IMG/VR virus record: IMGVR_UViG_3300031576_000007 | Span: 32,001 to 96,000 of that record | Origin: a virus | Reading direction: 5' to 3' (one strand) | DNA length: 64,000 nt | Part shown: positions 1,064 through 24,575 of the stretch, piece by piece | Layout of the letters: every line of letters begins with the position of its first letter | Position numbering within the stretch: position 1 is the stretch's first letter | Program-made: the position numbers and the translations under genes | The notes under the pieces: generated by a model | Seen by the model: only the letters and a program-made list of their open reading frames with translations | Databases searched by the model: none | What the model was told of the DNA's origin: nothing

Positions 1064-3895
1064 ATGTCTTATCCTTTTAGAAATGAACTATCAGAATTCG
1101 TGTTCTATCGGACCTATGCGAGGTGGTTAGATAGAGAAAAACGAAGAGAAACTTGGGATGAAGTTACAGAAAGATATTTTAACAATGTAATAAATAAGCA
1201 TAAGGACACAGTTCCTAGAAAGATACAGGCAGAAATAAAAGATAATATTTTTAAAATGGCTTCCATGCCCTCTATGAGAGGGTTGTGGTGTGCTGGTCCA
1301 GCTCTAGATATATCGAATGTGTGCTTGTTTAATTGCTCATATTTGCCTATAAAAGATTTATTTTCATTTGCTGAAATGTTGTATATACTATGCTGCGGGA
1401 CAGGTGTAGGTTTTAGTGTGGAAGAAGAAAACATAACCCAACTTCCTGAAATACAGAGACAAACTAGTGCAGGTGCAGGAATACACGAGGTTGAAGATTC
1501 TAAAGAAGGATGGGCGGATTCTTTAATGGCTGGTCTAGAAACGTGGTTTTCAGGTAAAGATATAGAATTTAATTATGATAAAATAAGACCTAGAGGGGCT
1601 AGACTGATAACATTCGGGGGCAGAGCTTCAGGCCCAGAACCTTTAAAGAGACTTCATGAATTTTCAAAAAAGATTATACTAGAAGCCCAAGGTAGAAAAC
1701 TAACCAGTCTTGAATGTCATGATATATGTTGTAAAATTGCCGAAATCGTTGTAGTTGGTGGGGTGAGACGTTCAAGCCTAGCAAGTTTTAGCGATTTAAA
1801 TGACGAGTTACTAATGAAAGCTAAAAATCCTCCTTTTCCTTCTCATAGGTATATGAGTAATAATTCTGCTGTCTACACTAAAAAACCAGATAGTGTTACT
1901 TTCATGAGAGAGTGGTATAATTTGGCGGCATCTGGGACAGGGGAACGGGGTATATATAATATACCTAATTTAAGTAATTATGCACCTAGAAGAATTTTTA
2001 CAGGTAAGGAGAGAAGCAATCCTTGTTTCGAAATTATATTGAAGCCATTCGAATTTTGTGTAGCCGGGGATACTCCTTTGATTCACAAAACAGGTATTTT
2101 AAATATTAAGAATGCTGTAAACAAGCCCATAGAAATATGGAATGGAGAAAAATGGAGCTTAGTAACTGTACGTAGAACCAGAAGGGACCAAAAACTAGTA
2201 CGAGTAACCTTAACTGATGGTTCTTACTTAGACTGCACTCCAGATCATAGGTTTTCAGTTAAAACAAGATTTATGAAATATTTTAAAGAAGTTCCTGCAA
2301 GTAGACTATTAAATAGCGATTATTCTTTACAATGTGAAAATTTTTCAATAGATAATATAGGAGGAATTAGAGCAGAAGACGCATATGATATTGGATTCTC
2401 CGTTGGGGACGGTTTTATACAAAAAAATATGGTGTATGCTAACTTATATGGAGAAAAAGATAAAAAATGCCCAATTAAGGGGATTCGTTATAAAGAATAT
2501 CTTCCTAAAGGATATAGTGTGTCTAAAATAAGAATTAAAACAGGTTTAGACGCTACACTCATTTCTTCGCTTAAAACAGATTCTAATGCTAGTGATATTT
2601 TATTTACATGGGATAGGCCCTCTGTTTTGAAATTTATAGCTGGTTTAGCTGACGCTGATGGATCAGAAACAAAAACAGGTGGCATACGCATTTATATAAG
2701 TGACGAAAAAAGAGTACGAAAGTTTCAACTTCTATTAACTAAAAATGGTATTAGATCTTCTGTTAATCTTTTACAGAAAAAAGGAACCAGAACCAATTTA
2801 TCAGTCCGTAAAAAAGATTTATGGTACTTACAGATTACAGAGTGCAATGAAATTCCTTGTTTTAGATTAGATACTTCGGGGGGGCATAAAACTAAATATA
2901 AAGGAAAATACCAAAATATAAAATCAGTTGTTTTATTGAGGGGGTTACATGATACATATTGTTTTAATGAACCAGAAAAACACAAAGGAGTATTTTCAAA
3001 TGTGTTAACCTATCAATGTAATCTATCAGACGTTGTTGTAAGGGCATCAGATTCATTTGATGATTTGGTAGATAAGGTTAGAGCAGCTACTTGGATCTGC
3101 GCTATCCAATCAACTTTTACTAATTTTAAATATATACGATCAGAATGGAAAAGCAACTGTGACGAAGAAAGGCTACTTGGGGTTTCATTAACAGGCCAGT
3201 TAGATAATCCAAAACTACTTAGCGAGGAAAAATTACAGATATTGAAAGAATATTCTATAAAAACAGCTAAAAAAGCAGCGGAAGCACTAAAGATAAATTT
3301 ATCGGCAGCTATAACAACAACCAAACCAAGTGGCACTGTTTCTCAATTAGTTGATTCAGCATCAGGGTGTCATCCAAGATACTCTAAATTTTATACAAGA
3401 AGGGTACGAATTTCTGATACAGATCCTTTATTTAAAATGATGAGAGCGCAGGGGGTCAAATTTGAACCAGAAGTAGATCAGGACCCTAAAAATCCGGATA
3501 CCTGGGTAGTCTCTTTTCCTGTTAAATCACCTAAAAATTCTATAACTAGGGATGAGATGACGGCTATTGAACAACTTAACTGGTATAGGAAACTTCAAAA
3601 TAATTGGTCTGAGCATAATAATAGTGTTACAATTTATGTAAAAGAAAACGAATGGCCAGAAGTCGGATCATATGTTTATAAACATTTTGATGAAATAGTT
3701 GGGGTAAGTTTTTTACCTTATGATGGTGGTAAATATAAATTGGCTCCTTATGAAATGATAACTGAAGAGGAATATAACAAAAATAAGGAAAAATTCCCAA
3801 AAATAAATTATTCTGACCTTTATAAGTATGAGGAAGAAGATAATACTGAAGGAGCTAAATCATACGCTTGTATAGGAGATCGTTGCGAGATATGA
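1064..3895 (+). CDS. nrdJ: Class II (adenosylcobalamin-dependent) ribonucleotide reductase, intein-containing
   Basis: FNCSY, VVVGGVRRS, NPCFEI, F|CNLS, TTTKPSGTVSQL, WSEHNNSVT and C-terminal CIGDRCEI Cys pair; no radical-generating beta subunit gene nearby. Confidence 0.93.
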   Translation: MSYPFRNELSEFVFYRTYARWLDREKRRETWDEVTERYFNNVINKHKDTVPRKIQAEIKDNIFKMASMPSMRGLWCAGPALDISNVCLFNCSYLPIKDLFSFAEMLYILCCGTGVGFSVEEENITQLPEIQRQTSAGAGIHEVEDSKEGWADSLMAGLETWFSGKDIEFNYDKIRPRGARLITFGGRASGPEPLKRLHEFSKKIILEAQGRKLTSLECHDICCKIAEIVVVGGVRRSSLASFSDLNDELLMKAKNPPFPSHRYMSNNSAVYTKKPDSVTFMREWYNLAASGTGERGIYNIPNLSNYAPRRIFTGKERSNPCFEIILKPFEFCVAGDTPLIHKTGILNIKNAVNKPIEIWNGEKWSLVTVRRTRRDQKLVRVTLTDGSYLDCTPDHRFSVKTRFMKYFKEVPASRLLNSDYSLQCENFSIDNIGGIRAEDAYDIGFSVGDGFIQKNMVYANLYGEKDKKCPIKGIRYKEYLPKGYSVSKIRIKTGLDATLISSLKTDSNASDILFTWDRPSVLKFIAGLADADGSETKTGGIRIYISDEKRVRKFQLLLTKNGIRSSVNLLQKKGTRTNLSVRKKDLWYLQITECNEIPCFRLDTSGGHKTKYKGKYQNIKSVVLLRGLHDTYCFNEPEKHKGVFSNVLTYQCNLSDVVVRASDSFDDLVDKVRAATWICAIQSTFTNFKYIRSEWKSNCDEERLLGVSLTGQLDNPKLLSEEKLQILKEYSIKTAKKAAEALKINLSAAITTTKPSGTVSQLVDSASGCHPRYSKFYTRRVRISDTDPLFKMMRAQGVKFEPEVDQDPKNPDTWVVSFPVKSPKNSITRDEMTAIEQLNWYRKLQNNWSEHNNSVTIYVKENEWPEVGSYVYKHFDEIVGVSFLPYDGGKYKLAPYEMITEEEYNKNKEKFPKINYSDLYKYEEEDNTEGAKSYACIGDRCEI
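2057..3016 (+). mobile_element. Intein (320 aa) with LAGLIDADG homing endonuclease in nrdJ
   Basis: Starts CVAGDT after PFEF; block B CTPDH; FIAGLADADG; ends VLTYQ before CNLS; removing it restores PFEFCNLS. Confidence 0.9.
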
Positions 3896-4401
3896 TAGCT
3901 GATTTTATAAAAAACTGGTGTGAAAAGCACAGTAGAAAGTTTATTATCTACGACCGAGCGCAAGGAAGTAAACAAGTATATCTTATTAGATATGTTATCT
4001 TCAAATGTAAGTGGTTTGGTGTATATTTACACGAGTTTTTTAAGTCTGATGAAGAAGTACTTCATGATCACCCTTGGGATTTCGTTACTTTAATTCTAAA
4101 AGGCTCTTATAAAGAAGAAATTTTAAGTAAAGAAAAAAAACGTTGGACTTCTGTTTACGGATGGATAAAAAAATTTAGAACTGTAAAAAAGGGTCAATTT
4201 TTATTTAGGAAAGCTAAACATATACACAGAGTTATTTTAACTGATAATAACCCAATAACTTTAAGCGTACTATTTAGGAAAAAAAGAGAATGGGGGTTCT
4301 GGGAACCGATTCCAACAGCTGAATTCCACCTACAAAACTACAAATGGAAACATTGGCGTGATTTTTTAAATATTAAAACTGGTGAAAATAAAAAACAATG
4401 A
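3892..4401 (+). CDS. Cupin-fold protein (conserved phage family)
   Basis: HDHPWDFVTLILKGSYKE ... HIHRV ... REWGFW; ATG 3892 overlaps the nrdJ stop (ATGA). Confidence 0.7.
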   Translation: MIADFIKNWCEKHSRKFIIYDRAQGSKQVYLIRYVIFKCKWFGVYLHEFFKSDEEVLHDHPWDFVTLILKGSYKEEILSKEKKRWTSVYGWIKKFRTVKKGQFLFRKAKHIHRVILTDNNPITLSVLFRKKREWGFWEPIPTAEFHLQNYKWKHWRDFLNIKTGENKKQ

Positions 4402-4847
4402 ACAGAAAACTAGATAGATTTTTGGTAAAGAGATTCCAGTCTATATTTGCCCAGAGATATCAAGATATGACTACCACTGCTATGTGCTGGGGCTTCATGT
4501 GTGGTGATGGTTGGGCAAGGCTCATATATGATCTTTGCTTAAAGATAGAACTTCTAGAAAAGACTTTCGGTATAGTAATTGAAGCTAGTCAGGTTAAGGA
4601 GAAGTATGGGCTATTGTGTTTTTATGTGTATTCGGATTATACTAAAGTTTCTAATGCGAAGCTTGGTAAAATGTTATGCAGTATGGTTAGTGATTTGATT
4701 TGTTCTGCGGAAGATAGAAGTGGTCAGTTGTGCGAAGTTTGCGGGGATTACGGGCAGGTTTACCCAGGTAGCTGGATTGTAACGAGGTGCGAGGATTGTG
4801 CTTTAGAAGAAGGTAGGGTTCTTGTGGATGAAAGCGAGCTACCATAA
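4398..4847 (+). CDS. Conserved phage hypothetical protein with C-terminal zinc finger
   Basis: GDGW, QVKEKYG, CEVCG...TRCEDC motifs. Confidence 0.7.
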   Translation: MNRKLDRFLVKRFQSIFAQRYQDMTTTAMCWGFMCGDGWARLIYDLCLKIELLEKTFGIVIEASQVKEKYGLLCFYVYSDYTKVSNAKLGKMLCSMVSDLICSAEDRSGQLCEVCGDYGQVYPGSWIVTRCEDCALEEGRVLVDESELP

Positions 4848-4850
4848 GAT

Positions 4851-5160
4851 CTTATTGGGCTGTGTACCCAATAAGTGTAGTTACTAGTTAACCTATGAAA
4901 CTAGACGTTTTAAGGAAACGTAAATTCCTGTCGGCATTGGTAGTTGGCCCAAAACTAATTACCACAGATTTAACTACTGCATCGTCAGCCTACGCGAGGA
5001 CTGTAACGGTGGCTATGCTGAAATAGCGATGTTTTACTCTTTTCCATAGTGCTATACCGAGAAAGAGACGCCAGGTACGATATGATCAAAAGAAACTAGA
5101 CAAAATTTGTATGTCTAGCACATCTAACCCCGGATGCAGTAATTAATATTGAAATCAATA
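4851..5160. other. Highly structured non-coding element (candidate ncRNA or replication origin)
   Basis: At least 8 inverted repeats, including a 13-bp long-range stem 4971-4983/5133-5145. Confidence 0.5.
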
Positions 5161-5179
5161 AGTTATAAAACCGTGCTTT

Positions 5180-5207
5180 ACTATAAACTATAAACTATCA
5201 ACTAAAG
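5180..5207 (+). repeat. Four tandem heptamer repeats (ACTATAA, ACTATAA, ACTATCA, ACTAAAG)
   Basis: Read directly from sequence. Confidence 0.75.
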
Positions 5208-5214
5208 AAATTAA

Positions 5215-5244
5215 ATGACTTTACCTAATAAAGTGTGGTATAAT
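5215..5244 (+). promoter_or_regulatory. Sigma70-type extended -10 promoter
   Basis: TG-G-TATAAT at 5236-5244; weak -35 ATGACT at 5215-5220. Confidence 0.65.
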
Positions 5245-5255
5245 AAGGAATATAA

Positions 5256-5546
5256 ATACCAAACATAAAACTAATAGAGGACAAACAATTTAAAATTTTA
5301 AGGATATTATGTAGTTGTCTAGCCCCAGAGCACACATATGACATAATAGTTGATAAAGAATTTGGTTTCACAGAGATCGCTCATAATTTAAATAAAGATC
5401 TAAATGAGCCATGTCTTAGTAGATTAAAAAATGCATTCAAGTATGTTTTAGGAAAATCATTATTGGTTTCAGGACTTGTCTTAGAAAAAGAAGATGTAGA
5501 GGAAATGATTAAGTTCTTACAAGAAAATGTAAAAGGTATGAAATGA
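5256..5546 (+). CDS. Conserved-type phage hypothetical protein missed by the ORF track (no ATG/GTG/TTG near 5' end; probable ATA start)
   Basis: 96-codon open frame: IPNIKLIEDKQFKILRILCSCLAPEH...SRLKNAFKYVLG...MIKFLQENVKGMK; stop overlaps next ATG (ATGA). Confidence 0.65.
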   Translation: MPNIKLIEDKQFKILRILCSCLAPEHTYDIIVDKEFGFTEIAHNLNKDLNEPCLSRLKNAFKYVLGKSLLVSGLVLEKEDVEEMIKFLQENVKGMK

Positions 5547-6064
5547 CTGAAGAGTTAAAAACTCCTGAAAAGGAAGAAGAAAAAGAAAAGCAGTGGACTT
5601 CTGCGGATTGGTTCTTAAACCCAGAAGTTCTTTATCTTAAGCCTGAAGAGTGTAGAGAAGTTACCCTAAACCCAGGGTATGAAGTAGAGTGGTTTAGAAA
5701 GACTTATTTAAACAAAGGGGAATTAGTTCTTACCAAGAAGGAGTATAGATCAGATCTTCCTAGAAATCTTAAAGGCAAGATCATAGCTGTCACAGCTGCT
5801 CCTATTATAAGGAAAGACGATTTTAACAGAATGGTTGAACGACAACCATATATAAGTTTACAAAAGTTTCTTAAACCTAAACCGCTTGGCAAGTATTATG
5901 AGCTGTTTAAAGCTGATACTAGTGAGTATCAAGAATGGGTTGGCCCGCATGAGTATATCGAAGATAGACGAAAAAATAAAAAAGTACATAGAACTTCTGA
6001 TGAAAACAAGAGTGGATCTAGAAAACCTCAAGAAAGAGCCTTCCTCGTTGTTAAGATTAAGTAA
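5543..6064 (+). CDS. Hypothetical protein
   Basis: 173 aa ORF in operon. Confidence 0.65.
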   Translation: MTEELKTPEKEEEKEKQWTSADWFLNPEVLYLKPEECREVTLNPGYEVEWFRKTYLNKGELVLTKKEYRSDLPRNLKGKIIAVTAAPIIRKDDFNRMVERQPYISLQKFLKPKPLGKYYELFKADTSEYQEWVGPHEYIEDRRKNKKVHRTSDENKSGSRKPQERAFLVVKIK

Positions 6065-7296: not shown

Positions 7297-8089
7297 ATTT
7301 TAAAAAATGTAATAAATGCGAAAAAGTTAAAGAATATTCTTTTTTTTATAAGTCTAAAACACTTAAAGAGGGGGGGGGAGTTCTTGCAAAAAATGTCTTA
7401 AAATATATAGAAAACTTGGTTATTTTATAAATAGTGCGGGAAACCATATAATAAAACGCAGGAAAACTAAAAAATGTGGGATTTGTAAAAAACACCAAAA
7501 AATATATCAATTTTACATTAGAAATGTTAAATATAAATCTAAAAAAGATGGAAATATAAAGATTTACAAAGCTCGTGTTTCTTATTGTAATACATGCCAC
7601 AAGTTAGGAATTAAAAAACATCATTACAAAGTATGGAGAAAAGAGTACAAAAAAGCTATAACTGCTAAATGACCCATAGCTCGAAGAAACGCAAGAGTTA
7701 GTAATCATGGTTGGTATCTTTCAAAACAGCAATATTTCGAGCTTATGGCAAAAATGTGTTATTATTGCGAAGGTAAGTTGCCTGTTTATGGAACTGGCTT
7801 AGATAGACTAAACAGCTCAAAAGGATATGAAAATACAAATGTTGTACCTTGTTGCACAGCTTGTAATAGAGTAAGAGGGGCTGTCCTATCAGTAGATAAT
7901 ATGTTAGAAATTAAACAATTTCTAATAAGGTGGAGACTAGAGAGGGAAGAATTAATTGCTGAGCAGATAGTTAAAAAAACTGAAGTTGAGCATACAATAA
8001 CTCAAGAGATTCTACAACAGAAGAGCACAGAGAAATTGTATGATGAATCTTATACATATATGGGTAATTTAGGCTCTATCGTTTATTAA
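7293..8089 (+). pseudogene. Disrupted Zn-finger/HNH homing endonuclease gene
   Basis: MNFKKCNKCEK..., frameshift in G9 tract 7370-7378, in-frame TGA 7670-7672, then CYYC...GLDRLNSSKGYENTNVVPCCTACN. Confidence 0.75.
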
Positions 8090-8198: not shown

Positions 8199-8918
8199 TT
8201 GACACAAACAATGAACACTGATATAATGATTATTCAAGGAGAAAAAGTGGAAAATTCTAATTTATATAAGAAACTGTTAAATATTTCAAAGGAAATGGGC
8301 CGTCTTCCTAAGAATGGAAGAAATGATTTTCATAAATATGACTACGTTACCGAAGCTGATGCTCTAGATAAGTTTAGAGAACTTTGTGTAAAGGAAAATA
8401 TTTTTGTTGTACCAGATACTACTTCTATAAATAAAGAAGGTGATTTAACCACAGTAAACGTTAAATATACAGTTATTGATGTAGAAACAGGGGATTCTGT
8501 TGTTCTTAACGTGCCTGGGCAAGGTCAAGATAAGGGGGATAAGGGTGTTTATAAAGCTGCAACTGGATCTTATAAGTATTTTATTCTAAAGGGATTTATG
8601 GTCCCAACTGGGGATGACCCAGAAAGGGACAATAATAGTCATAGGAATGAAAAAGTTGAGAATGAAGCCCCAGCGATAGCTCCTAATACATATAATATGA
8701 GCAGTGCTAGATTTGCTCCATCATCAGGATTTAAACCGGCTGCTAAGACAGTTTCTAGTAGAGTAGAAGAAGCTGATAAAATAGATGAGAAAAAACCTGA
8801 AGAGGTAATTGAAACTTCTCCCATAGTTCCGCCTACACAGAAAACTAAACCGCGTGTTTCTTTTAAGGACAGCCCTTTTATGAAACAGTTTCAACAAGAT
8901 AAGGTTAATAATGGATGA
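8199..8918 (+). CDS. ERF-family single-strand annealing protein
   Basis: KNGRNDFHKYDYV, GQGQDKGDKGVYKAATGSYKYFILKGFMVPTGDDPE; true start probably 8211 or 8226. Confidence 0.88.
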   Translation: MTQTMNTDIMIIQGEKVENSNLYKKLLNISKEMGRLPKNGRNDFHKYDYVTEADALDKFRELCVKENIFVVPDTTSINKEGDLTTVNVKYTVIDVETGDSVVLNVPGQGQDKGDKGVYKAATGSYKYFILKGFMVPTGDDPERDNNSHRNEKVENEAPAIAPNTYNMSSARFAPSSGFKPAAKTVSSRVEEADKIDEKKPEEVIETSPIVPPTQKTKPRVSFKDSPFMKQFQQDKVNNG

Positions 8919-9381
8919 GACGCAAAAAACAATCTCCCAAGAACAAATTTGTGAAGAAGTAAAAAAACTAGAAGAAGAGGATAAAAAAGAAGCTGATACT
9001 TTTGTCACTAGTGAAGCTAAACTAAAGGAGCAAGGTGCAAAGATTCCTCAGTTGACACAAGAACAAAGAATTATGATTGCTGGCAGAAACCATATCGATG
9101 GTCTTAGGGTTTTACAAGAGAGCTGGAGTAAATTAAGTGTCAGAGGTTCAAGAAGAGTGATGGTTGCTTTGTTACAACTACCTGAAGAAGGCATGAAGTC
9201 AGCCCTTCAAGGAGATTTAGAAAGACAACTATTCCAAATAGGACAAATGGTGCTTAATTCAAGATCAATGCTTGTTAACCACGCAATAATACAAGAATAT
9301 TTAAGGCAACAAGCAGAGACTAAAGAAAAAAATAAAGAAAATAAGGAGGAAATTAATGTCAACGAACAACCAAAACAATAA
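8911..9381 (+). CDS. Hypothetical protein
   Basis: 156 aa ORF, coupled overlaps. Confidence 0.65.
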   Translation: MDETQKTISQEQICEEVKKLEEEDKKEADTFVTSEAKLKEQGAKIPQLTQEQRIMIAGRNHIDGLRVLQESWSKLSVRGSRRVMVALLQLPEEGMKSALQGDLERQLFQIGQMVLNSRSMLVNHAIIQEYLRQQAETKEKNKENKEEINVNEQPKQ

Positions 9382-9687: not shown

Positions 9688-11670
9688 TTGAAAAAGTATG
9701 TAGAACTTAGAGTAACTCTTTCTGGGTCTCTAAGAAATAATATAGTTCCATTAACGGATCTATCTAAACATGTAGATCCCTGGAAGGATTGTTATAGAAG
9801 TGTGTTCTACTTCGACGACAATATGCTAAAATATGTTGCTGAGAATGGGTCTGTTGGTAAGTATCCTGGTAAAGTTGGTGTTGACCGGATAGCTTGGGAT
9901 CTTGATAGTCATCCTCTTGAACAGGCCCAGAAGGATGCCATTAAGATAGTTGATAGACTAGTCACTAGTTATGGAGTTAAAGAAGAAGAAATATCAGTCG
10001 CTTTTAGTGGTAGAAAAGGATTTGGTATCGAAATAAAAGTAGAGGGCATACCTTATTTCGATAATTTGTTCACTGAAAATGTTCCACTATACATAGGCCA
10101 TTTTTGCAAAGAAGTAGCTAAAGATTTAACAATTGATACATCAATTTATAGCAAAGTATTTTTATACAGAATTATTGGGACCCTCCATGATAAAGAAAGT
10201 GAAGTAGGGGGAGGGAACTTTCAGTTATTTAAAACTAATATCTCAATTAAGATGCTTCGGGACTCAACAATTGAAGAGATTAAAAAATATTGTATTGAAT
10301 ACAGAATTCCAGAGGTTTTCCCAACTATTTCCAATAGCTCAAAAATAAGCAAATCATTAGACAATATTATCAATAATTTTGATAAGATTATTAGAGAATT
10401 GCCTATTTGTAATACACCAACAGGGGGGATGCTCCATGAGGATTTAGCTCCTAAAGGACAAAAAACCTGCATTGTGAGATTATGCCAAGGAACTTATACT
10501 GAGGGACGAGATAATGCCCTTCTTAGGATAGCAGATCATGAAAAGAAGATAGGGATGCCTCCTGAAGTAGTGAAAGCAAAACTGATAGGTGTTCTTGAGC
10601 TTATGAATAAGAATGACCCAAGAAAAGCAGCTATTGACCCTATTACAGACACTGATTTAAATAGGCTAATTAATCAAATATTTTCAGGAGATTACGATTA
10701 CGGATGTTATGACGCAGTGCTTCATTCTCAGTGCAGTAAGAAGTGTTATTTAGCTTCTAGGAAGTTTAAAGAATCAACTTTAGACACAGTTTCACTAGGA
10801 GAGGCTTACCAGAGATCAAAACCATTCTTCAATAAGTATTATGAAAATATTGCCTTAACAGGGATAAAAGGAATAGATGAAAGTATGCCTCTATTCTTTG
10901 GCACATTCAACTTAATTGTTGGCAAGGCCGGAACCGGAAAAACTAGTATCATGTTGAATATATTGAAGAATTCTATAAAACAAGATATCCCAACATTATT
11001 TTTTAGTCTAGATATGAGTGAAGAAATGTTAATTCAAAGATTCGCTCCAATTCTTCTAGCTCAAGAGAGTAAACGGTTAATAAGTGGCAAAGAGTTTATG
11101 CAAGCTCATGCTAGAGGATTTAAGGATATAATAAATCAAGCCGATGACGAATTTAGTAAAGCGTCAGAAACAGTTAAGATTTCATCTAAACGTGGTCTTA
11201 CGGTTAGTATGATAAGAGATGAGATAGAACGACAAGAAGCTCTCTGGGGCAAGAAAGTAAAATTAGCTATTATAGATTATGTTCAACTATTAACTTCTGA
11301 TAAAGAGGGATTCGCCAATCATACCTTTAATGCTGAGGGCATCACTGAGTTAGCCAAGGATAAAAAAATATGTATACTAGGTCTTTCACAAGCTACAGGG
11401 GGATATAACGATCCTAATATTCTGGCTAAAGGTTCAAGAGCCTGGGAAGAGCAGACATCAACACAAGTTAATTGTTACAGACCATTTAAGGATAAGTATC
11501 CAGAGTATGATTGGACTATAGTAATGGTTATGGCTAAAAATAGATTGGGTCCATCTGATAAAGTTGAGTTATTTTTCCACGGGCCTTCAGGCATAGTTAG
11601 AGATCTAACAGAGGAAGAAAAAGAAGTTCTTATAGGTTTAAAAGATCGTTTAGAGTATGAAAACGAGTAA
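9688..11670 (+). CDS. Primase-helicase fusion (AEP-like primase plus SF4/DnaB-like helicase)
   Basis: WDLD and FSGRKGF primase motifs; Walker A GKAGTGKT, FFSLDM, IIDYVQL, LSQ, AKNR. Confidence 0.85.
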   Translation: MKKYVELRVTLSGSLRNNIVPLTDLSKHVDPWKDCYRSVFYFDDNMLKYVAENGSVGKYPGKVGVDRIAWDLDSHPLEQAQKDAIKIVDRLVTSYGVKEEEISVAFSGRKGFGIEIKVEGIPYFDNLFTENVPLYIGHFCKEVAKDLTIDTSIYSKVFLYRIIGTLHDKESEVGGGNFQLFKTNISIKMLRDSTIEEIKKYCIEYRIPEVFPTISNSSKISKSLDNIINNFDKIIRELPICNTPTGGMLHEDLAPKGQKTCIVRLCQGTYTEGRDNALLRIADHEKKIGMPPEVVKAKLIGVLELMNKNDPRKAAIDPITDTDLNRLINQIFSGDYDYGCYDAVLHSQCSKKCYLASRKFKESTLDTVSLGEAYQRSKPFFNKYYENIALTGIKGIDESMPLFFGTFNLIVGKAGTGKTSIMLNILKNSIKQDIPTLFFSLDMSEEMLIQRFAPILLAQESKRLISGKEFMQAHARGFKDIINQADDEFSKASETVKISSKRGLTVSMIRDEIERQEALWGKKVKLAIIDYVQLLTSDKEGFANHTFNAEGITELAKDKKICILGLSQATGGYNDPNILAKGSRAWEEQTSTQVNCYRPFKDKYPEYDWTIVMVMAKNRLGPSDKVELFFHGPSGIVRDLTEEEKEVLIGLKDRLEYENE

Positions 11671-14600
11671 AAATTACGTAATTGCTAAAAACGTAGAAGA
11701 ACATTTGAGTGTTCTAGACTATCTTCTAAGTAATCCTGGGGTAATGGCTGTTGATACTGAGACCACAGGTAGTAATCCTTTTACTTGCAAACTTATCGGG
11801 GTGTCCTTCTCTGTTGATGAAGGTGAGGCATTTTATCTAGCTTTACAAAAATATAATAAAGAATTAGACACCTTAGAATCTTTATTAACAGAAGATGAGT
11901 GGTTTAAAGTAAGGATAAAGTTAATAGAAGTAATAGAGCATAATGAGAATCAGCTGCTCATGCACAATAGTCCATTTGACGTTATAGTTATAGAACGAGA
12001 AGTAGGAGCTAATGCCTTATTAAGATTAAGAGCAGACACCCTACTATTAAAACACACTGTTGACGAAAGAAGACCACATGGGCTTAAGAAAGTGTCCGTA
12101 TCTATTTTAGGCCCCGAATGGGCTAACGAACAAGAAGATCTTAAGAAATCCGTAATAGAAAATGGAGGAAAATGGACTGAAGAATTAAAAGAAATGTACA
12201 AGGCTGATTTAGATATATTAGGCAAATATGCTAATGCTGATGCCGATATGACCAGGAGAATCTTTTTCTTTTTAGAGCATGATTTAGAAACACAAGGGCT
12301 TAGTCGATTTTTTTATGAAAAAGAAGTAATGCCCTTGAACGAAGTTACAATTAGTATGATTAAGACTGGCATAAGGTGTGATCTTGATTATTTCAATAAG
12401 CTTAAGAGTGATTTAGAAAAAGAAGCAGTTCAGTTAGAAGATGAGGCTCACAAAGAATTAAGTGCCAAATTTCAAAAACACTATGATCAATTTGAGAAAG
12501 AATTACTAGACTCTGAATTTCCATTAACCGAATCAGGTCTCATGTTTGCAAAACTTTATGAAGAACAAAATTTACCAATTATATTAAACCAGAAAACTGG
12601 TAAACCAACTTTTTCATCAAAGGTTTTAAGAGAAGTATTTGATCTTTATTTAGATAGCACTGTTCTACAATGGAAAATGGAGTTATTAACTAGAGAAGAA
12701 TTTGTAAAGAAAGAAAAAGACTTAATAACTAAATCACAAAGGGAATTATATTTAGATAAAGAAAAAACTAAACATGTTATAAACTTAAGTTCTAGTAAGC
12801 AGCTGTCTGCAATACTATTTGGTTTCCTTGGCGAAACCCCGATAAAAAAAACAGATACTGGAAAACCCCAAGTTGATGAAGAAGTACTGGAGCATTTTGC
12901 TCCGCAATATTCTTTTATTAACTCCTTATTAAAACTTAGAAAAGTTAATAAATTACTTTTTACTTATGTAGAAGGAATCTTGAGTCACAATATTGATGAT
13001 ATAGTTCGCCCTGGATGGCAGCAATATGGAACAGATTCGGGCAGGTATTCGTGTATATCAGAAGGTCAGATTATTACTATGCCGGGGGGGGATAAGCCTA
13101 TAGAACAAGTATCAATGGGCGATCTTGTATATTGTTTCTTGAAAGATGGAAAACCAACAGTTTCAAAAGTTACTAGGGTTTATAACAACGGGCTTAGAGA
13201 TTGTATAAAAATACAATGGAAGAGTAAAGGATCACACAGAATAGGGGAATTAATTTGTACCCCTGACCATCTGATAAAAACTAGAGAAGATAAATGGGTT
13301 AAAGCAGTAGATTTAGAGAAGGGTGCTAGAATTTATCATTTAAGAAGAGCAAAAAATCTATTAAATGGAAGAGTAAGAGTATATGGTCCTAAATATTTTT
13401 ATAAAACAGAAGAACAGCTTTTAAAAGAAGAGTATTACAAATTTCCTAAAAATTATCACGCTCACCACATTAATCATAATAAATCTGATAATAGAGTAGA
13501 GAATGTACAAATACTTAACCCTTTTGATCATTTAAGTTCTCATGGCAAAGAAAATGCGAGTCTAGGAAAAATAAAATGGAGGCACTTAACACTAAAAGAG
13601 AATAGGCCGTTAAGATTAAAAGGACCAAAAAATCCTAATTGGATCAGCATTACAAGATATCAACTTTTAAAAAATATAGCTAGAAATAAAGGCATTCTTA
13701 CGTCAATTAATATGGATTTTCAAACACTAAAGAATAAAATAAAATATTTAGGAATTGATGTAAATAGTATAAAGTTAAAATATAACTCCAGAGGTGATTA
13801 TCTCAGCAGAGGATTCATTAAAAATATATTAATTAAATCTAGACATAAAAAAGAAGCTATAAAATTAAGTGGAGTAAATTATTATAAATTTAATAAATTA
13901 TTAGACTTATATGGTCTAGAGGAGAACCATACTGTAATTTCTATAGCTTCCGTGGGTAAAAGGCAAGTTTATGATCTTGAGATAGAAAATCACCACAATT
14001 TCATAGCTAACGAAATCTGTGTACATAATTGTATAAATCCAAACCTCCAAAATTTACCAAGAGATGATACTAGAATAAAACATGGTATAATAGCAAGAGA
14101 TGGGTATAGTCTAGTAGGAGCGGATTATTCACAGTTGGAACCGCGCAGCTTCGCTCACTGTAGCGGAGAGCCGGCTTTAATACAACCTTATATTGATGAT
14201 AAATATACAGATCTTTATTCTGCGGCAGCTATAGATTGGTTTAATCTTGGCTGTTCATCTAAAGAAGTTAAAGCTAAACATCCTGATAAGAGAAACATAA
14301 TGAAGGCGTCTCTTTTAGCTATAACTTACGGGGCTAAAAAATGGAAATTAGCAAAAATAACTGGTAAAACGCTAGAAGAAGCTGACAAATTTATATCCGA
14401 TTATTTTAAAAAGTATTCAATATTAGATAGGTATATAGCAGGAAGACATGGATCAGCAATTAAACATGGGAAAGTACAAAGTGAGGCGGGGAGAATTAGG
14501 AGGTTCATTGATATTCGTAGACTTCAAAAATCAAGAAAAAGGGAAGAACAAGCTTTATTCAATAAGCTTCTTAATACTTCTGTTAATTTTAGTATTCAAT

Positions 14601-14839
14601 CTCTTGCCGCTAGTATTGTTAATCGTTCAATGATAGCTATAAAAAAAGCGTTTGAGGATGAAAAACTCGATGCAAGAATACTTTTACAAGTTCATGATGA
14701 AATAGTTTCAGAAGCAAGAAATGATCATGCTGAAAGAGCAAGACAGATAATGAAGGAAAAGATGGAAGGGACGTATAAACTTCGTGTACCCTTAGTTGCT
14801 GACCCTAAGATTGGATTTAGGTTAACTGAAATTAAATAA
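11657..14839 (+). CDS. polA: Family A DNA polymerase with 3'-5' exonuclease, intein-containing
   Basis: AVDTET, HNSPFD, YANADAD; SGRYS|CINPNLQN; ADYSQLE; RNIMKASLLAITYG; QVHDEI. Confidence 0.95.
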   Translation: MKTSKNYVIAKNVEEHLSVLDYLLSNPGVMAVDTETTGSNPFTCKLIGVSFSVDEGEAFYLALQKYNKELDTLESLLTEDEWFKVRIKLIEVIEHNENQLLMHNSPFDVIVIEREVGANALLRLRADTLLLKHTVDERRPHGLKKVSVSILGPEWANEQEDLKKSVIENGGKWTEELKEMYKADLDILGKYANADADMTRRIFFFLEHDLETQGLSRFFYEKEVMPLNEVTISMIKTGIRCDLDYFNKLKSDLEKEAVQLEDEAHKELSAKFQKHYDQFEKELLDSEFPLTESGLMFAKLYEEQNLPIILNQKTGKPTFSSKVLREVFDLYLDSTVLQWKMELLTREEFVKKEKDLITKSQRELYLDKEKTKHVINLSSSKQLSAILFGFLGETPIKKTDTGKPQVDEEVLEHFAPQYSFINSLLKLRKVNKLLFTYVEGILSHNIDDIVRPGWQQYGTDSGRYSCISEGQIITMPGGDKPIEQVSMGDLVYCFLKDGKPTVSKVTRVYNNGLRDCIKIQWKSKGSHRIGELICTPDHLIKTREDKWVKAVDLEKGARIYHLRRAKNLLNGRVRVYGPKYFYKTEEQLLKEEYYKFPKNYHAHHINHNKSDNRVENVQILNPFDHLSSHGKENASLGKIKWRHLTLKENRPLRLKGPKNPNWISITRYQLLKNIARNKGILTSINMDFQTLKNKIKYLGIDVNSIKLKYNSRGDYLSRGFIKNILIKSRHKKEAIKLSGVNYYKFNKLLDLYGLEENHTVISIASVGKRQVYDLEIENHHNFIANEICVHNCINPNLQNLPRDDTRIKHGIIARDGYSLVGADYSQLEPRSFAHCSGEPALIQPYIDDKYTDLYSAAAIDWFNLGCSSKEVKAKHPDKRNIMKASLLAITYGAKKWKLAKITGKTLEEADKFISDYFKKYSILDRYIAGRHGSAIKHGKVQSEAGRIRRFIDIRRLQKSRKREEQALFNKLLNTSVNFSIQSLAASIVNRSMIAIKKAFEDEKLDARILLQVHDEIVSEARNDHAERARQIMKEKMEGTYKLRVPLVADPKIGFRLTEIK
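13052..14029 (+). mobile_element. Intein (326 aa) with HNH endonuclease in polA
   Basis: Starts CISEGQ, CTPDH block B, HAHHINHNKSDNRVENV HNH motif, ends VYDLEI...CVHN before C. Confidence 0.92.
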
Positions 14840-22208: not shown

Positions 22209-22572
22209 GTCAGTTTCAGATATGACTATCGAAGAATTAGCGGAACAAAAATTTGAGGCTGGTAAAACATGGGTGGACGCTTGTGCTATTCACCATCGTA
22301 TGAACATTGGGTATGACAGTGGGGAAAAGCTACGAAAAATTATGGCTAAAATAAGATCTTCTCAACAACCCCCAAATGGGAAAAAAACCTGGACTCATGA
22401 CGAATTGCGCGATGCAGCGTTGGCTACAGATGAATATACCACATTCCTTAATCAGCTTAATGAAGCATACCAAGCTATGTTGGATACAGTCAATGAAAGG
22501 GATAAATGGGAAAATTTATTCGAAGGCCGGAGATCTCAGATGTCGTATGAAAAGAGCATGCTAAAATCATGA
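22198..22572 (+). CDS. UvsY-like recombination mediator (tentative)
   Basis: Helical protein with ALATDEY and RRSQMSYEK; immediately upstream of recA. Confidence 0.45.
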   Translation: MEIKSVSDMTIEELAEQKFEAGKTWVDACAIHHRMNIGYDSGEKLRKIMAKIRSSQQPPNGKKTWTHDELRDAALATDEYTTFLNQLNEAYQAMLDTVNERDKWENLFEGRRSQMSYEKSMLKS

Positions 22573-24575
22573 ATAAGAAGTTAAAAGAGCTTAAAGAATC
22601 TGTGGATAAGCAATTTGGTAAAGGTTCTGTTATACTTTTTGGGGAGGATTCAGATCTTTTTAATATTAAAGTAATCCCCACAGGAATTTTTAGTTTGGAT
22701 AGATCTCTGGGAATAGGTGGGATACCTAGAGGAAGAATGATTGAAATATATGGCCCGAATAGTACTGGAAAAACTACACTAGCTTTATACGTTGCTGCAT
22801 CAGCACAGAAACAAGGAGAAATTGTAGCTTACTTAGATTTGGAAAATAGTTTAGATAGAAATTTAGCCAATGACTTAGGAGTAAATGTTGATTCATTATT
22901 ATTCTCTCAACCTGATTGCGCAGAGAATGCCTTAGAAATTTTAGAGTATCTTGTAAGAAGTGGTGAAGTTGGTTTAATTGTAGTAGATTCTGTAGCAGCT
23001 CTTGTGCCTAGGGCTGAGTTGAGCGGGGAAATGGGGGATAGCGTTTCTTCTGACACCCCTGTTTTTATTAGGCACAAAACTAAAAAATATACAGATATAG
23101 TACCTATAGAAGATTTATATGGCGGTGGGGATAATTTTCTAGGAAAACAAAGAATTTATAAAAAAACAAAAAATATAGAAATACTTACACATAATGGTTG
23201 GAAACCTCTTTTAGCTGTGATTAAGAAAAAAAATGACACTAAAAAGAATCTATCATTAATTAGAACAACAACAGGTTATATAAAAACTACTGAAGATCAC
23301 TCTTTATTTCAAGATGGAAAAGAAGTATCACCAAAAGAGTTAAATATTTTCGATAGAATAGACGTTCATAATACGAATGATTTTAATTTTAATTTGAGTG
23401 GGGTTAATAAAAATATTGCTTGGTTATTAGGATTCTGGTGTGCAGAAGGTTCAACGAATAACAATGATTGTAAAAAGAACAGATTTGAAGTTTGTAATAT
23501 AAATTTAAATTTGATAAATAAATGCAAAGAAATCATTGATTCTAATTTTCCAACCATTGGGAAAATTAGAAGACCAAAATCAAAAGATTCAAGAAATTTA
23601 TTATATATTTTGACTTGTAATGCTGATTCTGATCTAGGATTTTTAATAGAAGAATGCAGAACTAAAAAATCATCCTTAAAAAAGGTTCCTTCTTTAATAT
23701 TAAATGCGTCTTCTGAAATTAAAGAAAGTTTTCTTGATGGTTTTTTTCAAGGAGATGGTTCACATGGTAATAAACACGGGAAAATTTATTATTATAATAA
23801 CTCATTACCTATGATTGCTGGAATTCAATATCTTTTACATAGTTTAAACAGGAAAACTGCAATTAGATTAGATAGAAAAAGACCTGAACAACTTATTTTA
23901 GAACAAGTAGAAAGCTTATTCCATAGAGAAAATGAAATCCGAGATAAGATTACATTAGATCCTCCTAATTTTTTGTATGACGTTTCAACCGAGTCGGGAA
24001 CTTTTGTGGCAGCTATCGGGAATATAGTTTGTCATAATAGCCATATGGGTCTCCAAGCACGTCTAATGTCCCAAGCGATGAGGAAATTAGTAGGGGTAAC
24101 TAACAAAACTGGTACAACAGTAATATGGATTAACCAGACAAGACAAAATATAGGTCAATTTTATGGTCCTAATGAAGTTACTTCTGGGGGTAATGCTTTA
24201 AAGTTTTACTCTAGCATAAGATTAGAAGTCCGAAAAGGTGAAACTCTAAAAGAAAAAGATACTGTGATAGGGCACTCTCTCAAAATAAAAGTTGTAAAAA
24301 ATAAACTATCCTCCCCTTTTACTACGTCAGAATGCAGCTTGATTTATGGCAAAGGTATCGATATCGCAGGAGATTTGTTTGATACTGCAATAATATCAGA
24401 TATTATAAAAAAGAGTGGGAGTTGGTATAGTTATGATGACAAAAGATTAGGTCAAGGACGAGATCAATCTATTCAATTTTTAATAGAGCAAGGATTACTG
24501 GATGAGATTACTAAAAAATTACAGAAACAAGAACCACCAAGCGCTGTACCCGAAGAAGTGAAATCAACAAAATGA
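22569..24575 (+). CDS. recA: RecA recombinase, intein-containing
   Basis: KQFGKGS, GIGGIPRGRMIEIYGPNSTGKTT, VDSVAALVP, GD|SHMGLQARLMSQAMRK, GGNALKFY, VVKNK. Confidence 0.95.
   Translation: MNKKLKELKESVDKQFGKGSVILFGEDSDLFNIKVIPTGIFSLDRSLGIGGIPRGRMIEIYGPNSTGKTTLALYVAASAQKQGEIVAYLDLENSLDRNLANDLGVNVDSLLFSQPDCAENALEILEYLVRSGEVGLIVVDSVAALVPRAELSGEMGDSVSSDTPVFIRHKTKKYTDIVPIEDLYGGGDNFLGKQRIYKKTKNIEILTHNGWKPLLAVIKKKNDTKKNLSLIRTTTGYIKTTEDHSLFQDGKEVSPKELNIFDRIDVHNTNDFNFNLSGVNKNIAWLLGFWCAEGSTNNNDCKKNRFEVCNINLNLINKCKEIIDSNFPTIGKIRRPKSKDSRNLLYILTCNADSDLGFLIEECRTKKSSLKKVPSLILNASSEIKESFLDGFFQGDGSHGNKHGKIYYYNNSLPMIAGIQYLLHSLNRKTAIRLDRKRPEQLILEQVESLFHRENEIRDKITLDPPNFLYDVSTESGTFVAAIGNIVCHNSHMGLQARLMSQAMRKLVGVTNKTGTTVIWINQTRQNIGQFYGPNEVTSGGNALKFYSSIRLEVRKGETLKEKDTVIGHSLKIKVVKNKLSSPFTTSECSLIYGKGIDIAGDLFDTAIISDIIKKSGSWYSYDDKRLGQGRDQSIQFLIEQGLLDEITKKLQKQEPPSAVPEEVKSTK
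23040..24038 (+). mobile_element. Intein (333 aa, Ser1) with LAGLIDADG endonuclease in recA
   Basis: Starts SVSSDTPV, TTEDHS block B, LLGFWCAEG and FLDGFFQGDG, ends VCHN before S. Confidence 0.92.

What the first reader, a model, noticed from the sequence alone, without database searches (positions are those of the whole stretch)
4851..5160. Unannotated ~300-nt multi-stem element in the largest gene-free gap: candidate novel structured ncRNA
Seen: consecutive hairpins CTTATTGGG/CCCAATAAG (4851-59/4867-75), CTAGTT/AACTAG (4884-89/4899-904), ACGTTT/AAACGT (4905-10/4916-21) and TGGTAGTTGG/CTAATTACCA (4938-47/4955-64, two G-U pairs on +). A 13-bp long-range stem (4971-83/5133-45) then closes a multibranch domain with CAGCCT..AGGACTG, GCTAT/ATAGC (5012-16/5023-27), CTCTTTT/GAAAGAG (5037-43/5061-67) and CTAGACA/TGTCTAG (5096-102/5112-18). 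The rest of the window is almost fully coding. I could not match it to tRNA, tmRNA, RNase P, SRP, 6S, hammerhead, cobalamin riboswitch or group I cores. Wobble pairs do not fix the strand. Inference: an undescribed structured RNA or an ssDNA-folding origin.
Basis: partly seen in the sequence, partly recalled or inferred. Interest (0 to 1): 0.72.

Follow-up and report, generated by a model that had tools for sequence, protein, structure and literature searches.

The report
New structured phage RNA, function unknown
The right-hand half of the flagged stretch is a real, about 167-base folded non-coding RNA of an uncultured phage, matches no described RNA family, and in its one known relative sits right behind a cluster of phage tRNA genes; the left-hand hairpins have no outside support.

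Summary
The flagged stretch splits into two parts.

**Supported part: window 4975-5141, + strand.**
- It has one homologue, in metagenome contig L009 (8394-8567), at the same place in the gene order.
- The two copies share a closing stem P1, four hairpins (P2-P5) and a pseudoknot (PK).
- Eight base pairs have changed on both sides and none is broken. Hairpins in the flanking coding genes of the same two phages keep only 35% of their changed pairs.
- Rfam 15 gives no match on either strand, even at E up to 10. ARAGORN finds no tRNA or tmRNA.
- In L009 the RNA starts 3 nt after the last of four tRNA genes. The island is bracketed by two HNH endonuclease genes, much as phage T4 places rnaD and rnaC behind its tRNAs.
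- The window's phage has no tRNA genes but kept the RNA.
- A promoter-like site found at the matching place in both phages lies downstream, so the RNA ends a transcription unit rather than leading one.

**Unsupported part: hairpins at 4851-4964.** They have no counterpart in L009 and remain unexplained.

**Best reading:** a trans-acting stable phage RNA cut out of a longer transcript. Its function is not known. Only two copies were found, so the family is thin, and the strand (+) rests on a few G-U pairs and on context.

The parts
4975..5141 (+). Core conserved structured RNA, 167 nt: five helices around a junction plus a pseudoknot
   Evidence: Homologue L009:8394-8567 found with model R1. 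Covariation, control. No Rfam match. Single copy in the 112-kb genome.
4975..4983 (+). P1 5' strand, pairs with 5133-5141. UACUGCAU/AUGCAGUA is identical in both phages
   Evidence: The pairs do not vary, so the stem is conserved but gives no covariation.
5133..5141 (+). P1 3' strand
4986..5003 (+). P2 hairpin, 6 bp with a bulged A5000. The loop ACGCG is invariant and its CGCG is self-complementary
   Evidence: 3 pairs changed on both sides and 1 on one side (U-G in L009); none broken
5007..5010 (+). Pseudoknot 5' strand (CGGU), pairs with 5056-5059 (ACCG) inside the P4 loop
   Evidence: In register with L009 GGGC/GCCC. 2 of 4 pairs changed on both sides. Found by eye after both sequences had been seen.
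5012..5027 (+). P3 hairpin GCUAU/AUAGC
   Evidence: L009 has a hairpin of different sequence, (U)GCCG/CGGC(G), at the same place. The register depends on the alignment.
5037..5067 (+). P4 hairpin, 7 bp with a 17-nt loop in both phages. The terminal U-G pair is kept in both
   Evidence: 3 pairs changed on both sides, none broken
5068..5095 (+). Long A-rich joining strand with conserved ACG..AGGUA..GAUA
   Evidence: Alignments
5096..5118 (+). P5 hairpin CUAGACA/UGUCUAG
   Evidence: L009 has a longer three-part hairpin of unrelated sequence at this place
4970..4974 (+). Window-only extension of P1, pairs with 5142-5146, with a C-A mismatch on the + strand
   Evidence: I4. Not kept in L009.
4851..4964 (.). 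Four upstream hairpins (A-D); status open
   Evidence: Present. z is -1.9 to -2.1 on + and -3.5 to -4.4 on -. No counterpart in L009. No U-tract, so not intrinsic terminators.
4398..4847 (+). Upstream gene: 149-aa Cys-rich protein of unknown function. Its homologue marks the matching locus in L009
   Evidence: 58% identity to L009 6998-7450
5215..5244 (+). Sigma-70-like promoter with an extended -10; marks the start of the next transcription unit
   Evidence: 10/12 match here. 12/12 match at the matching place in L009, 9056-9085, directly before the conserved gene.
5256..5546 (+). Conserved 96-codon gene that bounds the non-coding gap. It begins with ATA where the relative has ATG

Best explanation
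Window 4975-5141 encodes, on the + strand, a phage RNA of about 167 nt that folds on its own.

**Fold.** A closing stem P1 holds four hairpins. An H-type pseudoknot joins the strand between P2 and P3 to the P4 loop.

**Transcription (inferred).** The RNA is made as the tail of the rightward operon (nrdJ, a cupin-like gene, the 149-aa gene). The next unit has its own promoter.

**Release (inferred).** In the relative L009 the same RNA follows four tRNA genes by 3 nt. There it is probably freed by the enzymes that trim tRNA precursors, as proposed for T4 rnaC and rnaD. In the window's phage, which has no tRNA genes, an upstream hairpin may serve as the cutting signal.

**Action (inferred).** The mature RNA acts in trans. 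The invariant unpaired parts (loop ACGCG, GUAA, GUUUU, ACG..AGGUA) would be the contact surface for a protein or another RNA. The self-complementary CGCG in the P2 loop would allow pairing between two copies.

**What is shown and what is not.** Shown: conservation, the fold, the absence of any known family, and the position. Inferred: transcription, processing and action in trans. The function is not known.
For: - Homologue at the matching place in the gene order of the only close relative.
- 8 pairs changed on both sides and 0 broken. Slid controls give 0-1.
- Coding control: 35% of changed pairs kept; 2 of 136 stems keep all.
- No conserved reading frame across the element.
- G-U pairs on the + strand: an internal U-G in L009 P2 and a terminal U-G in P4 of both copies.
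- Same orientation as the four L009 tRNA genes and as all flanking genes.
- G+C is 44% against about 33% for the genome.
- T4 has the same layout, tRNA-Arg then rnaD then rnaC, with the homing endonuclease gene segB inside the cluster.
- ROOL and GOLLD RNAs are reported near tRNA islands of phages (bioRxiv 10.1101/2024.12.08.627333).
- A promoter-like site at the matching place downstream in both phages.
Against: - Only two copies are known, so there is no statistical covariation test.
- P1 does not vary.
- P3 and P5 match only as 'a hairpin in the same place'.
- The pseudoknot was found after both sequences had been seen.
- In the window the - strand folds better than the + strand.
- No promoter, terminator or expression data for the RNA itself.
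- No sequence or fold likeness to T4 rnaC/rnaD, so that parallel is one of position only.
- The 117-kb relative G001 lacks the element.
Confidence: 0.5

Rival explanations
1. A cis-acting element of the mRNA: a riboswitch-like sensor or a protein-binding leader that controls the genes downstream, or a 3' end structure that shields the upstream operon (and, in L009, the tRNA transcripts) from 3'-to-5' exonucleases.
For: The element is non-coding, in the sense orientation, and lies between genes. A pseudoknotted multi-helix fold with invariant junction bases is typical of ligand-binding RNAs. In L009 it ends 46 nt before an HNH gene. Lying at the end of the operon fits a protective 3' structure.
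Against: There is no terminator or sequestering hairpin after P1 in either phage. The next conserved gene has its own promoter-like site at the matching place in both phages, between it and the element. The gene directly downstream differs between the two phages: an inserted HNH gene in L009, none in the window. No riboswitch model matches.
Confidence: 0.2
2. The RNA is made from the - strand: an antisense or independent leftward transcript that may also cover the 4851-4964 hairpins.
For: In the window the - strand folds much better than shuffles. z is -3.95 for 4970-5146, -4.4 for 4848-4970 and -5.3 for the whole stretch. The C-A mismatch in the window's P1 extension becomes G-U on the - strand. 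A weak promoter-like site on the - strand lies at 5371-5343.
Against: In L009 the + strand folds better. Three G-U cells in the conserved helices become A-C on the - strand. The P1 extension is not conserved. The tRNA genes and all neighbouring genes run rightward.
Confidence: 0.12
3. A DNA-level element: a replication origin or other site that folds as single-stranded DNA, a homing-endonuclease target, or an invertible segment bounded by the inverted repeat TACTGCAT / ATGCAGTA.
For: It lies just upstream of the recombination and replication genes: exonuclease, Erf, primase-helicase and polymerase. The 12-nt and 8-nt blocks at the two ends are identical in phages whose neighbouring proteins are only 58-65% identical. 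Two HNH genes flank the island in L009. An AT-rich stretch with ACTATAA heptamers follows at about 5179-5200.
Against: Compensatory changes in the internal stems P2, P4 and PK need pairing within one strand, which binding sites or cleavage targets do not explain. A G-U pair is kept in both copies. No recombinase or initiator gene is next to it. The heptamer word is not enriched.
Confidence: 0.1
4. The 4851-4964 hairpins, and possibly parts of the core, are decayed remains of a tRNA island like that of L009 and have no present function.
For: The relative carries four tRNA genes and a tRNA-Tyr-like sequence at exactly this place. The window's genome has none at all. The hairpins are not conserved.
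Against: No tRNA model matches even at E up to 10. Stems of 9-10 bp are unlike tRNA arms. For the core, the compensatory changes show selection on the fold.
Confidence: 0.08

Closest known systems
Phage T4 small stable RNAs rnaC (species 1, 139 nt) and rnaD (species 2, 119 nt)
   Same: Phage-encoded RNAs of 120-170 nt annotated only as small stable RNAs. They lie at the far end of a tRNA gene cluster, 1-6 nt behind the previous RNA, in the same orientation, with a homing endonuclease gene in the cluster. L009 has tRNA-Ile, then 3 nt, then the element.
   Different: Model R1 shows no likeness in sequence or fold. rnaC carries a tRNA-like T arm, which this element lacks. In the window's phage there are no tRNA genes at all.
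ROOL and GOLLD RNAs (Rfam families; large ornate phage and prophage RNAs)
   Same: Structured phage RNAs with pseudoknots and no known function, often next to tRNA islands. They assemble through kissing loops (bioRxiv 10.1101/2024.12.08.627333).
   Different: They are three to five times longer (about 580 and over 800 nt). Their Rfam models do not match here, even at E up to 10. Self-association of this element is only a guess, based on the CGCG loop.
Riboswitch-type multi-helix aptamers (for example the five-helix lysine class, or the cobalamin class beside an nrdJ gene)
   Same: Similar size, a multi-helix junction closed by P1, a pseudoknot, and invariant junction bases.
   Different: No Rfam riboswitch model matches. 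There is no expression platform. The element lies downstream of nrdJ, not upstream, and is separated from the next conserved gene by a promoter.

Membership tests
Any Rfam 15 family (4227 models) | Covariance-model score at or above the gathering threshold | tested here: not met
   No match at gathering scores over the whole window. No match at E up to 10 on 4600-5700, on 4840-5160, or on the L009 copy, both strands.
tRNA / tmRNA | Cloverleaf with anticodon, or a tRNA-like domain plus tag reading frame | tested here: not met
   ARAGORN finds none in the window or in the whole 112-kb genome. The Rfam tRNA model finds nothing at E up to 10.
T4 rnaC/rnaD-type stable RNAs | Position at the far end of a phage tRNA cluster, same strand, a few nt after a tRNA | tested here: inconclusive
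   Met in L009, 3 nt after tRNA-Ile. Not met in the window's phage, which has no tRNA genes.
T4 rnaC/rnaD-type stable RNAs | Likeness in sequence or fold to T4 rnaC or rnaD | tested here: not met
   Model R1 with filters off finds nothing above noise on the T4 tRNA region. The folds differ.
T4 rnaC/rnaD-type stable RNAs | Accumulates as a stable, processed RNA in infected cells | not testable with these tools
   No expression data. The phage is uncultured, with no relative among 50,697 phage records.
ROOL / GOLLD | Match to the family model; length of about 580 or over 800 nt | tested here: not met
   No Rfam match. The element is 167-174 nt.
Riboswitch or other cis-regulatory leader | An expression platform (terminator/antiterminator or RBS-sequestering hairpin) joined to the regulated gene | tested here: not met
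   No terminator-like site in either phage. A promoter-like site lies between the element and the next conserved gene.
Intrinsic terminator (hairpins at 4851-4964) | G+C-rich stem followed by a U-tract | tested here: not met
   No terminator-like sites in 4300-6000.

The most novel reading that the evidence does not exclude
This is the founding member of a new class of small phage RNAs linked to tRNA islands. It would act either by self-association through the invariant self-complementary CGCG loop, as a small counterpart of the ROOL/GOLLD assemblies, or as a catalytic or decoy RNA that acts on host tRNA processing or on tRNA-targeting defences. It would be essential enough to survive the loss of every tRNA gene from the island.
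Probability: 0.1. Interest if true: 0.75.

Novelty: new variant of a known kind. Interest (0 to 1): 0.45.

Why it matters
Phage tRNA islands repeatedly carry structured RNAs whose roles are still unknown: T4 rnaC and rnaD, ROOL and GOLLD. A compact 167-nt example with a clear pseudoknotted fold would be much easier to study by probing, crystallography or cryo-EM than the large ornate RNAs. This one also persists in a phage that has lost its tRNA genes, which suggests its role does not depend on them. The limit is that only two copies are known and the host is unknown, so for now it is a well-supported candidate and not an established family.

Tried and rejected
**Known families**
- Rfam at gathering and at E up to 10, both strands, both phages: nothing.
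- ARAGORN: no tRNA or tmRNA.

**Search for more homologues**
- blastn against 50,697 phage records: no match.
- tblastn with the neighbouring exonuclease: no match. With the primase-helicase: only matches below 31% identity.
- Four exact-pattern scans of IMG/VR and one of GTDB genomes, built from the conserved blocks. All 17 loci returned were chance matches: the first 11 were judged by eye and the other 6 gave no hit with model R1. One pattern returned nothing at all.
- Model R1 over 84 loci that hold homologues of the 149-aa gene: only L009.
- The 117-kb relative G001 lacks the element, by whole-record search and with filters off at the matching locus.
- IMG/VR scan with the exonuclease alignment: no relatives.
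- Notes from earlier scans: only this same stretch.
The second contig carrying the 149-aa protein, and other assemblies, could therefore not be fetched.

**Other ideas rejected**
- CTATAAAC as a shared promoter word: not enriched.
- A coding reading: stops in the frames and no shared ORF.
- Likeness to T4 rnaC/rnaD: none.
- Energy of the shared fold on either strand: not decisive.

Full report
**Setting**

The window is bases 32001-96000 of a 111,989-bp IMG/VR virus record with direct terminal repeats and about 33% G+C. All genes around the finding run rightward:
- a sigma-like HTH protein
- a class II ribonucleotide reductase with an intein
- a cupin-like protein
- a 149-aa Cys-rich protein (4398-4847)
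- the gap
- a 173-aa protein
- a PD-(D/E)XK exonuclease
- Erf
- primase-helicase
- DNA polymerase

The genome has no tRNA gene and no close relative among cultured phages.

**The observation**

Folding energy is not decisive:
- In the window the + strand is borderline (z about -1.8 to -2.1) and the - strand is clearly better (z about -4 to -5).
- In the relative the + strand is the better one.

**A homologue**

The 149-aa protein has one close relative in the 5.8-billion-protein set, at 58% identity. Its contig was recovered from JGI metagenomes as L009. Gene order is the same in both phages: the sigma-like gene, a small ORF, RNR, the cupin-like gene, the 149-aa gene, then an island, then a 96-aa gene, the 173-aa gene and the exonuclease.

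In L009 the island holds, in order:
- an HNH endonuclease gene
- tRNA-Met
- a 220-nt spacer
- tRNA-Asp, tRNA-Ala and tRNA-Ile
- after 3 nt, a 174-nt stretch that aligns with window 4975-5141
- a second HNH gene

It finds nothing else in 84 loci that carry homologues of the 149-aa gene.

**The fold**

| Helix | Window | L009 |
|---|---|---|
| P1 | UACUGCAU / AUGCAGUA | identical |
| P2 | 6 bp, loop ACGCG | 6 bp, loop ACGCG |
| P3 | hairpin | hairpin of different sequence |
| P4 | 7 bp, 17-nt loop | 7 bp, 17-nt loop |
| P5 | hairpin | longer hairpin of different sequence |
| PK | CGGU / ACCG | GGGC / GCCC, same register |

PK is a 4-bp pairing between the strand after P2 and the 3' part of the P4 loop, which makes an H-type pseudoknot.

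On the model-based alignment, P2, PK and P4 hold 17 pairs. Eight have changed on both sides, one has changed on one side, and none is broken. Sliding the partners by one to three columns gives 0-1.

As a control I took 176 hairpin stems of at least 6 bp from six flanking genes aligned between the same two phages. Only 35% of their changed pairs stay pairable, and only 2 of 136 stems with three or more changed pairs keep all of them. No reading frame is shared across the element. The 3' domain is therefore a real structure under selection.

**The strand**

The conserved helices contain an internal U-G in P2 of L009 and a terminal U-G in P4 of both copies. All of these would be A-C on the - strand. 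The tRNA genes and all flanking genes run rightward. The only opposing signals are the window's folding energies and a C-A mismatch in a P1 extension that is not conserved. I put the + strand at about 75-80%.

**What it is not**

- No Rfam family matches, on either strand, in either phage, even at E up to 10.
- It is not a tRNA or tmRNA.
- It is not an intrinsic terminator.
- It has no likeness to T4 rnaC or rnaD. Rfam likewise gave no hit on the T4 rnaC/rnaD stretch at E up to 1 apart from two sub-threshold sRNA matches.

**Transcription context**

A sigma-70-type promoter with an extended -10 lies directly before the conserved 96-aa gene in both phages. The match is 12/12 in L009 (9056-9085) and 10/12 in the window (5215-5244). 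The element therefore closes the upstream unit, and the next conserved gene has its own promoter. This argues against a leader or riboswitch role for that gene.

**Closest parallels**

T4 places two small stable RNAs of 119 and 139 nt directly behind tRNA-Arg at the end of its tRNA cluster, which also holds the homing endonuclease gene segB. ROOL and GOLLD, larger phage RNAs with no known function, are also reported near tRNA islands and assemble through kissing loops. The present element matches these in position and kind but not in sequence, fold or size.

**The 5' hairpins (4851-4964)**

They have no counterpart in L009, match no tRNA model and lack U-tracts. They may be processing or stabilising hairpins, remains of a lost tRNA island, or part of a - strand transcript. 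I cannot tell which.

**Limits**

- Only two copies exist in everything I could search.
- Five exact-pattern scans, four of IMG/VR and one of GTDB genomes, returned only chance matches or nothing.
- The 117-kb relative G001 lacks the element.
- There are no expression data.

**Verdict**

This is a genuine, previously undescribed structured RNA candidate of about 167 nt. It most likely acts as a stable trans-acting phage RNA processed from a longer transcript. Its function is unknown.

Noticed in passing
window 5256-5546 (+): A conserved 96-codon gene, 41% identical to L009 9095-9379, has no ATG, GTG or TTG before codon 70. Its first codon is ATA where the relative has ATG. It sits only about 11 nt behind the -10 box of a promoter-like site found at the matching place in both phages, which suggests a nearly leaderless mRNA with an unusual start, or a sequencing error.
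   Followed up: partly
L009 7450-9069: The relative's island of four tRNA genes plus the RNA is bracketed by two free-standing HNH endonuclease genes (7450-7836 and 8614-9069) that the window's phage lacks. T4 has a similar arrangement, with segB inside its tRNA cluster.
   Followed up: partly
L009 7990-8096 (+): A tRNA-like sequence missed by ARAGORN and Rfam. It has a 7-bp acceptor-like stem ending in CCA, an anticodon-like loop CUGUAAA (GUA, Tyr), a long variable arm and an odd T loop. It may be an aberrant or decaying tRNA-Tyr.
   Followed up: partly
whole genome G000 (111,989 bp): The window's phage has no tRNA gene. Its relatives carry them at or near the matching locus: four in L009, and two in the 22-kb locus L099 of G001. 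This points to loss of the tRNA island with the RNA retained.
   Followed up: partly
window 5179-5204: Tandem heptamers (ACTATAA, ACTATAA, ACTATCA) in the AT-rich spacer between the RNA and the promoter. The 8-mer CTATAAAC also occurs before the HNH gene in L009, but it is not enriched in either sequence.
   Followed up: yes
window 1064-3895, 11657-14839, 22569-24575: The ribonucleotide reductase, the DNA polymerase and the UvsX/RecA-like gene all look interrupted. The reductase has a LAGLIDADG match, the polymerase an HNH match, and the recombinase gives split profile matches. The genome appears rich in selfish elements.
   Followed up: no
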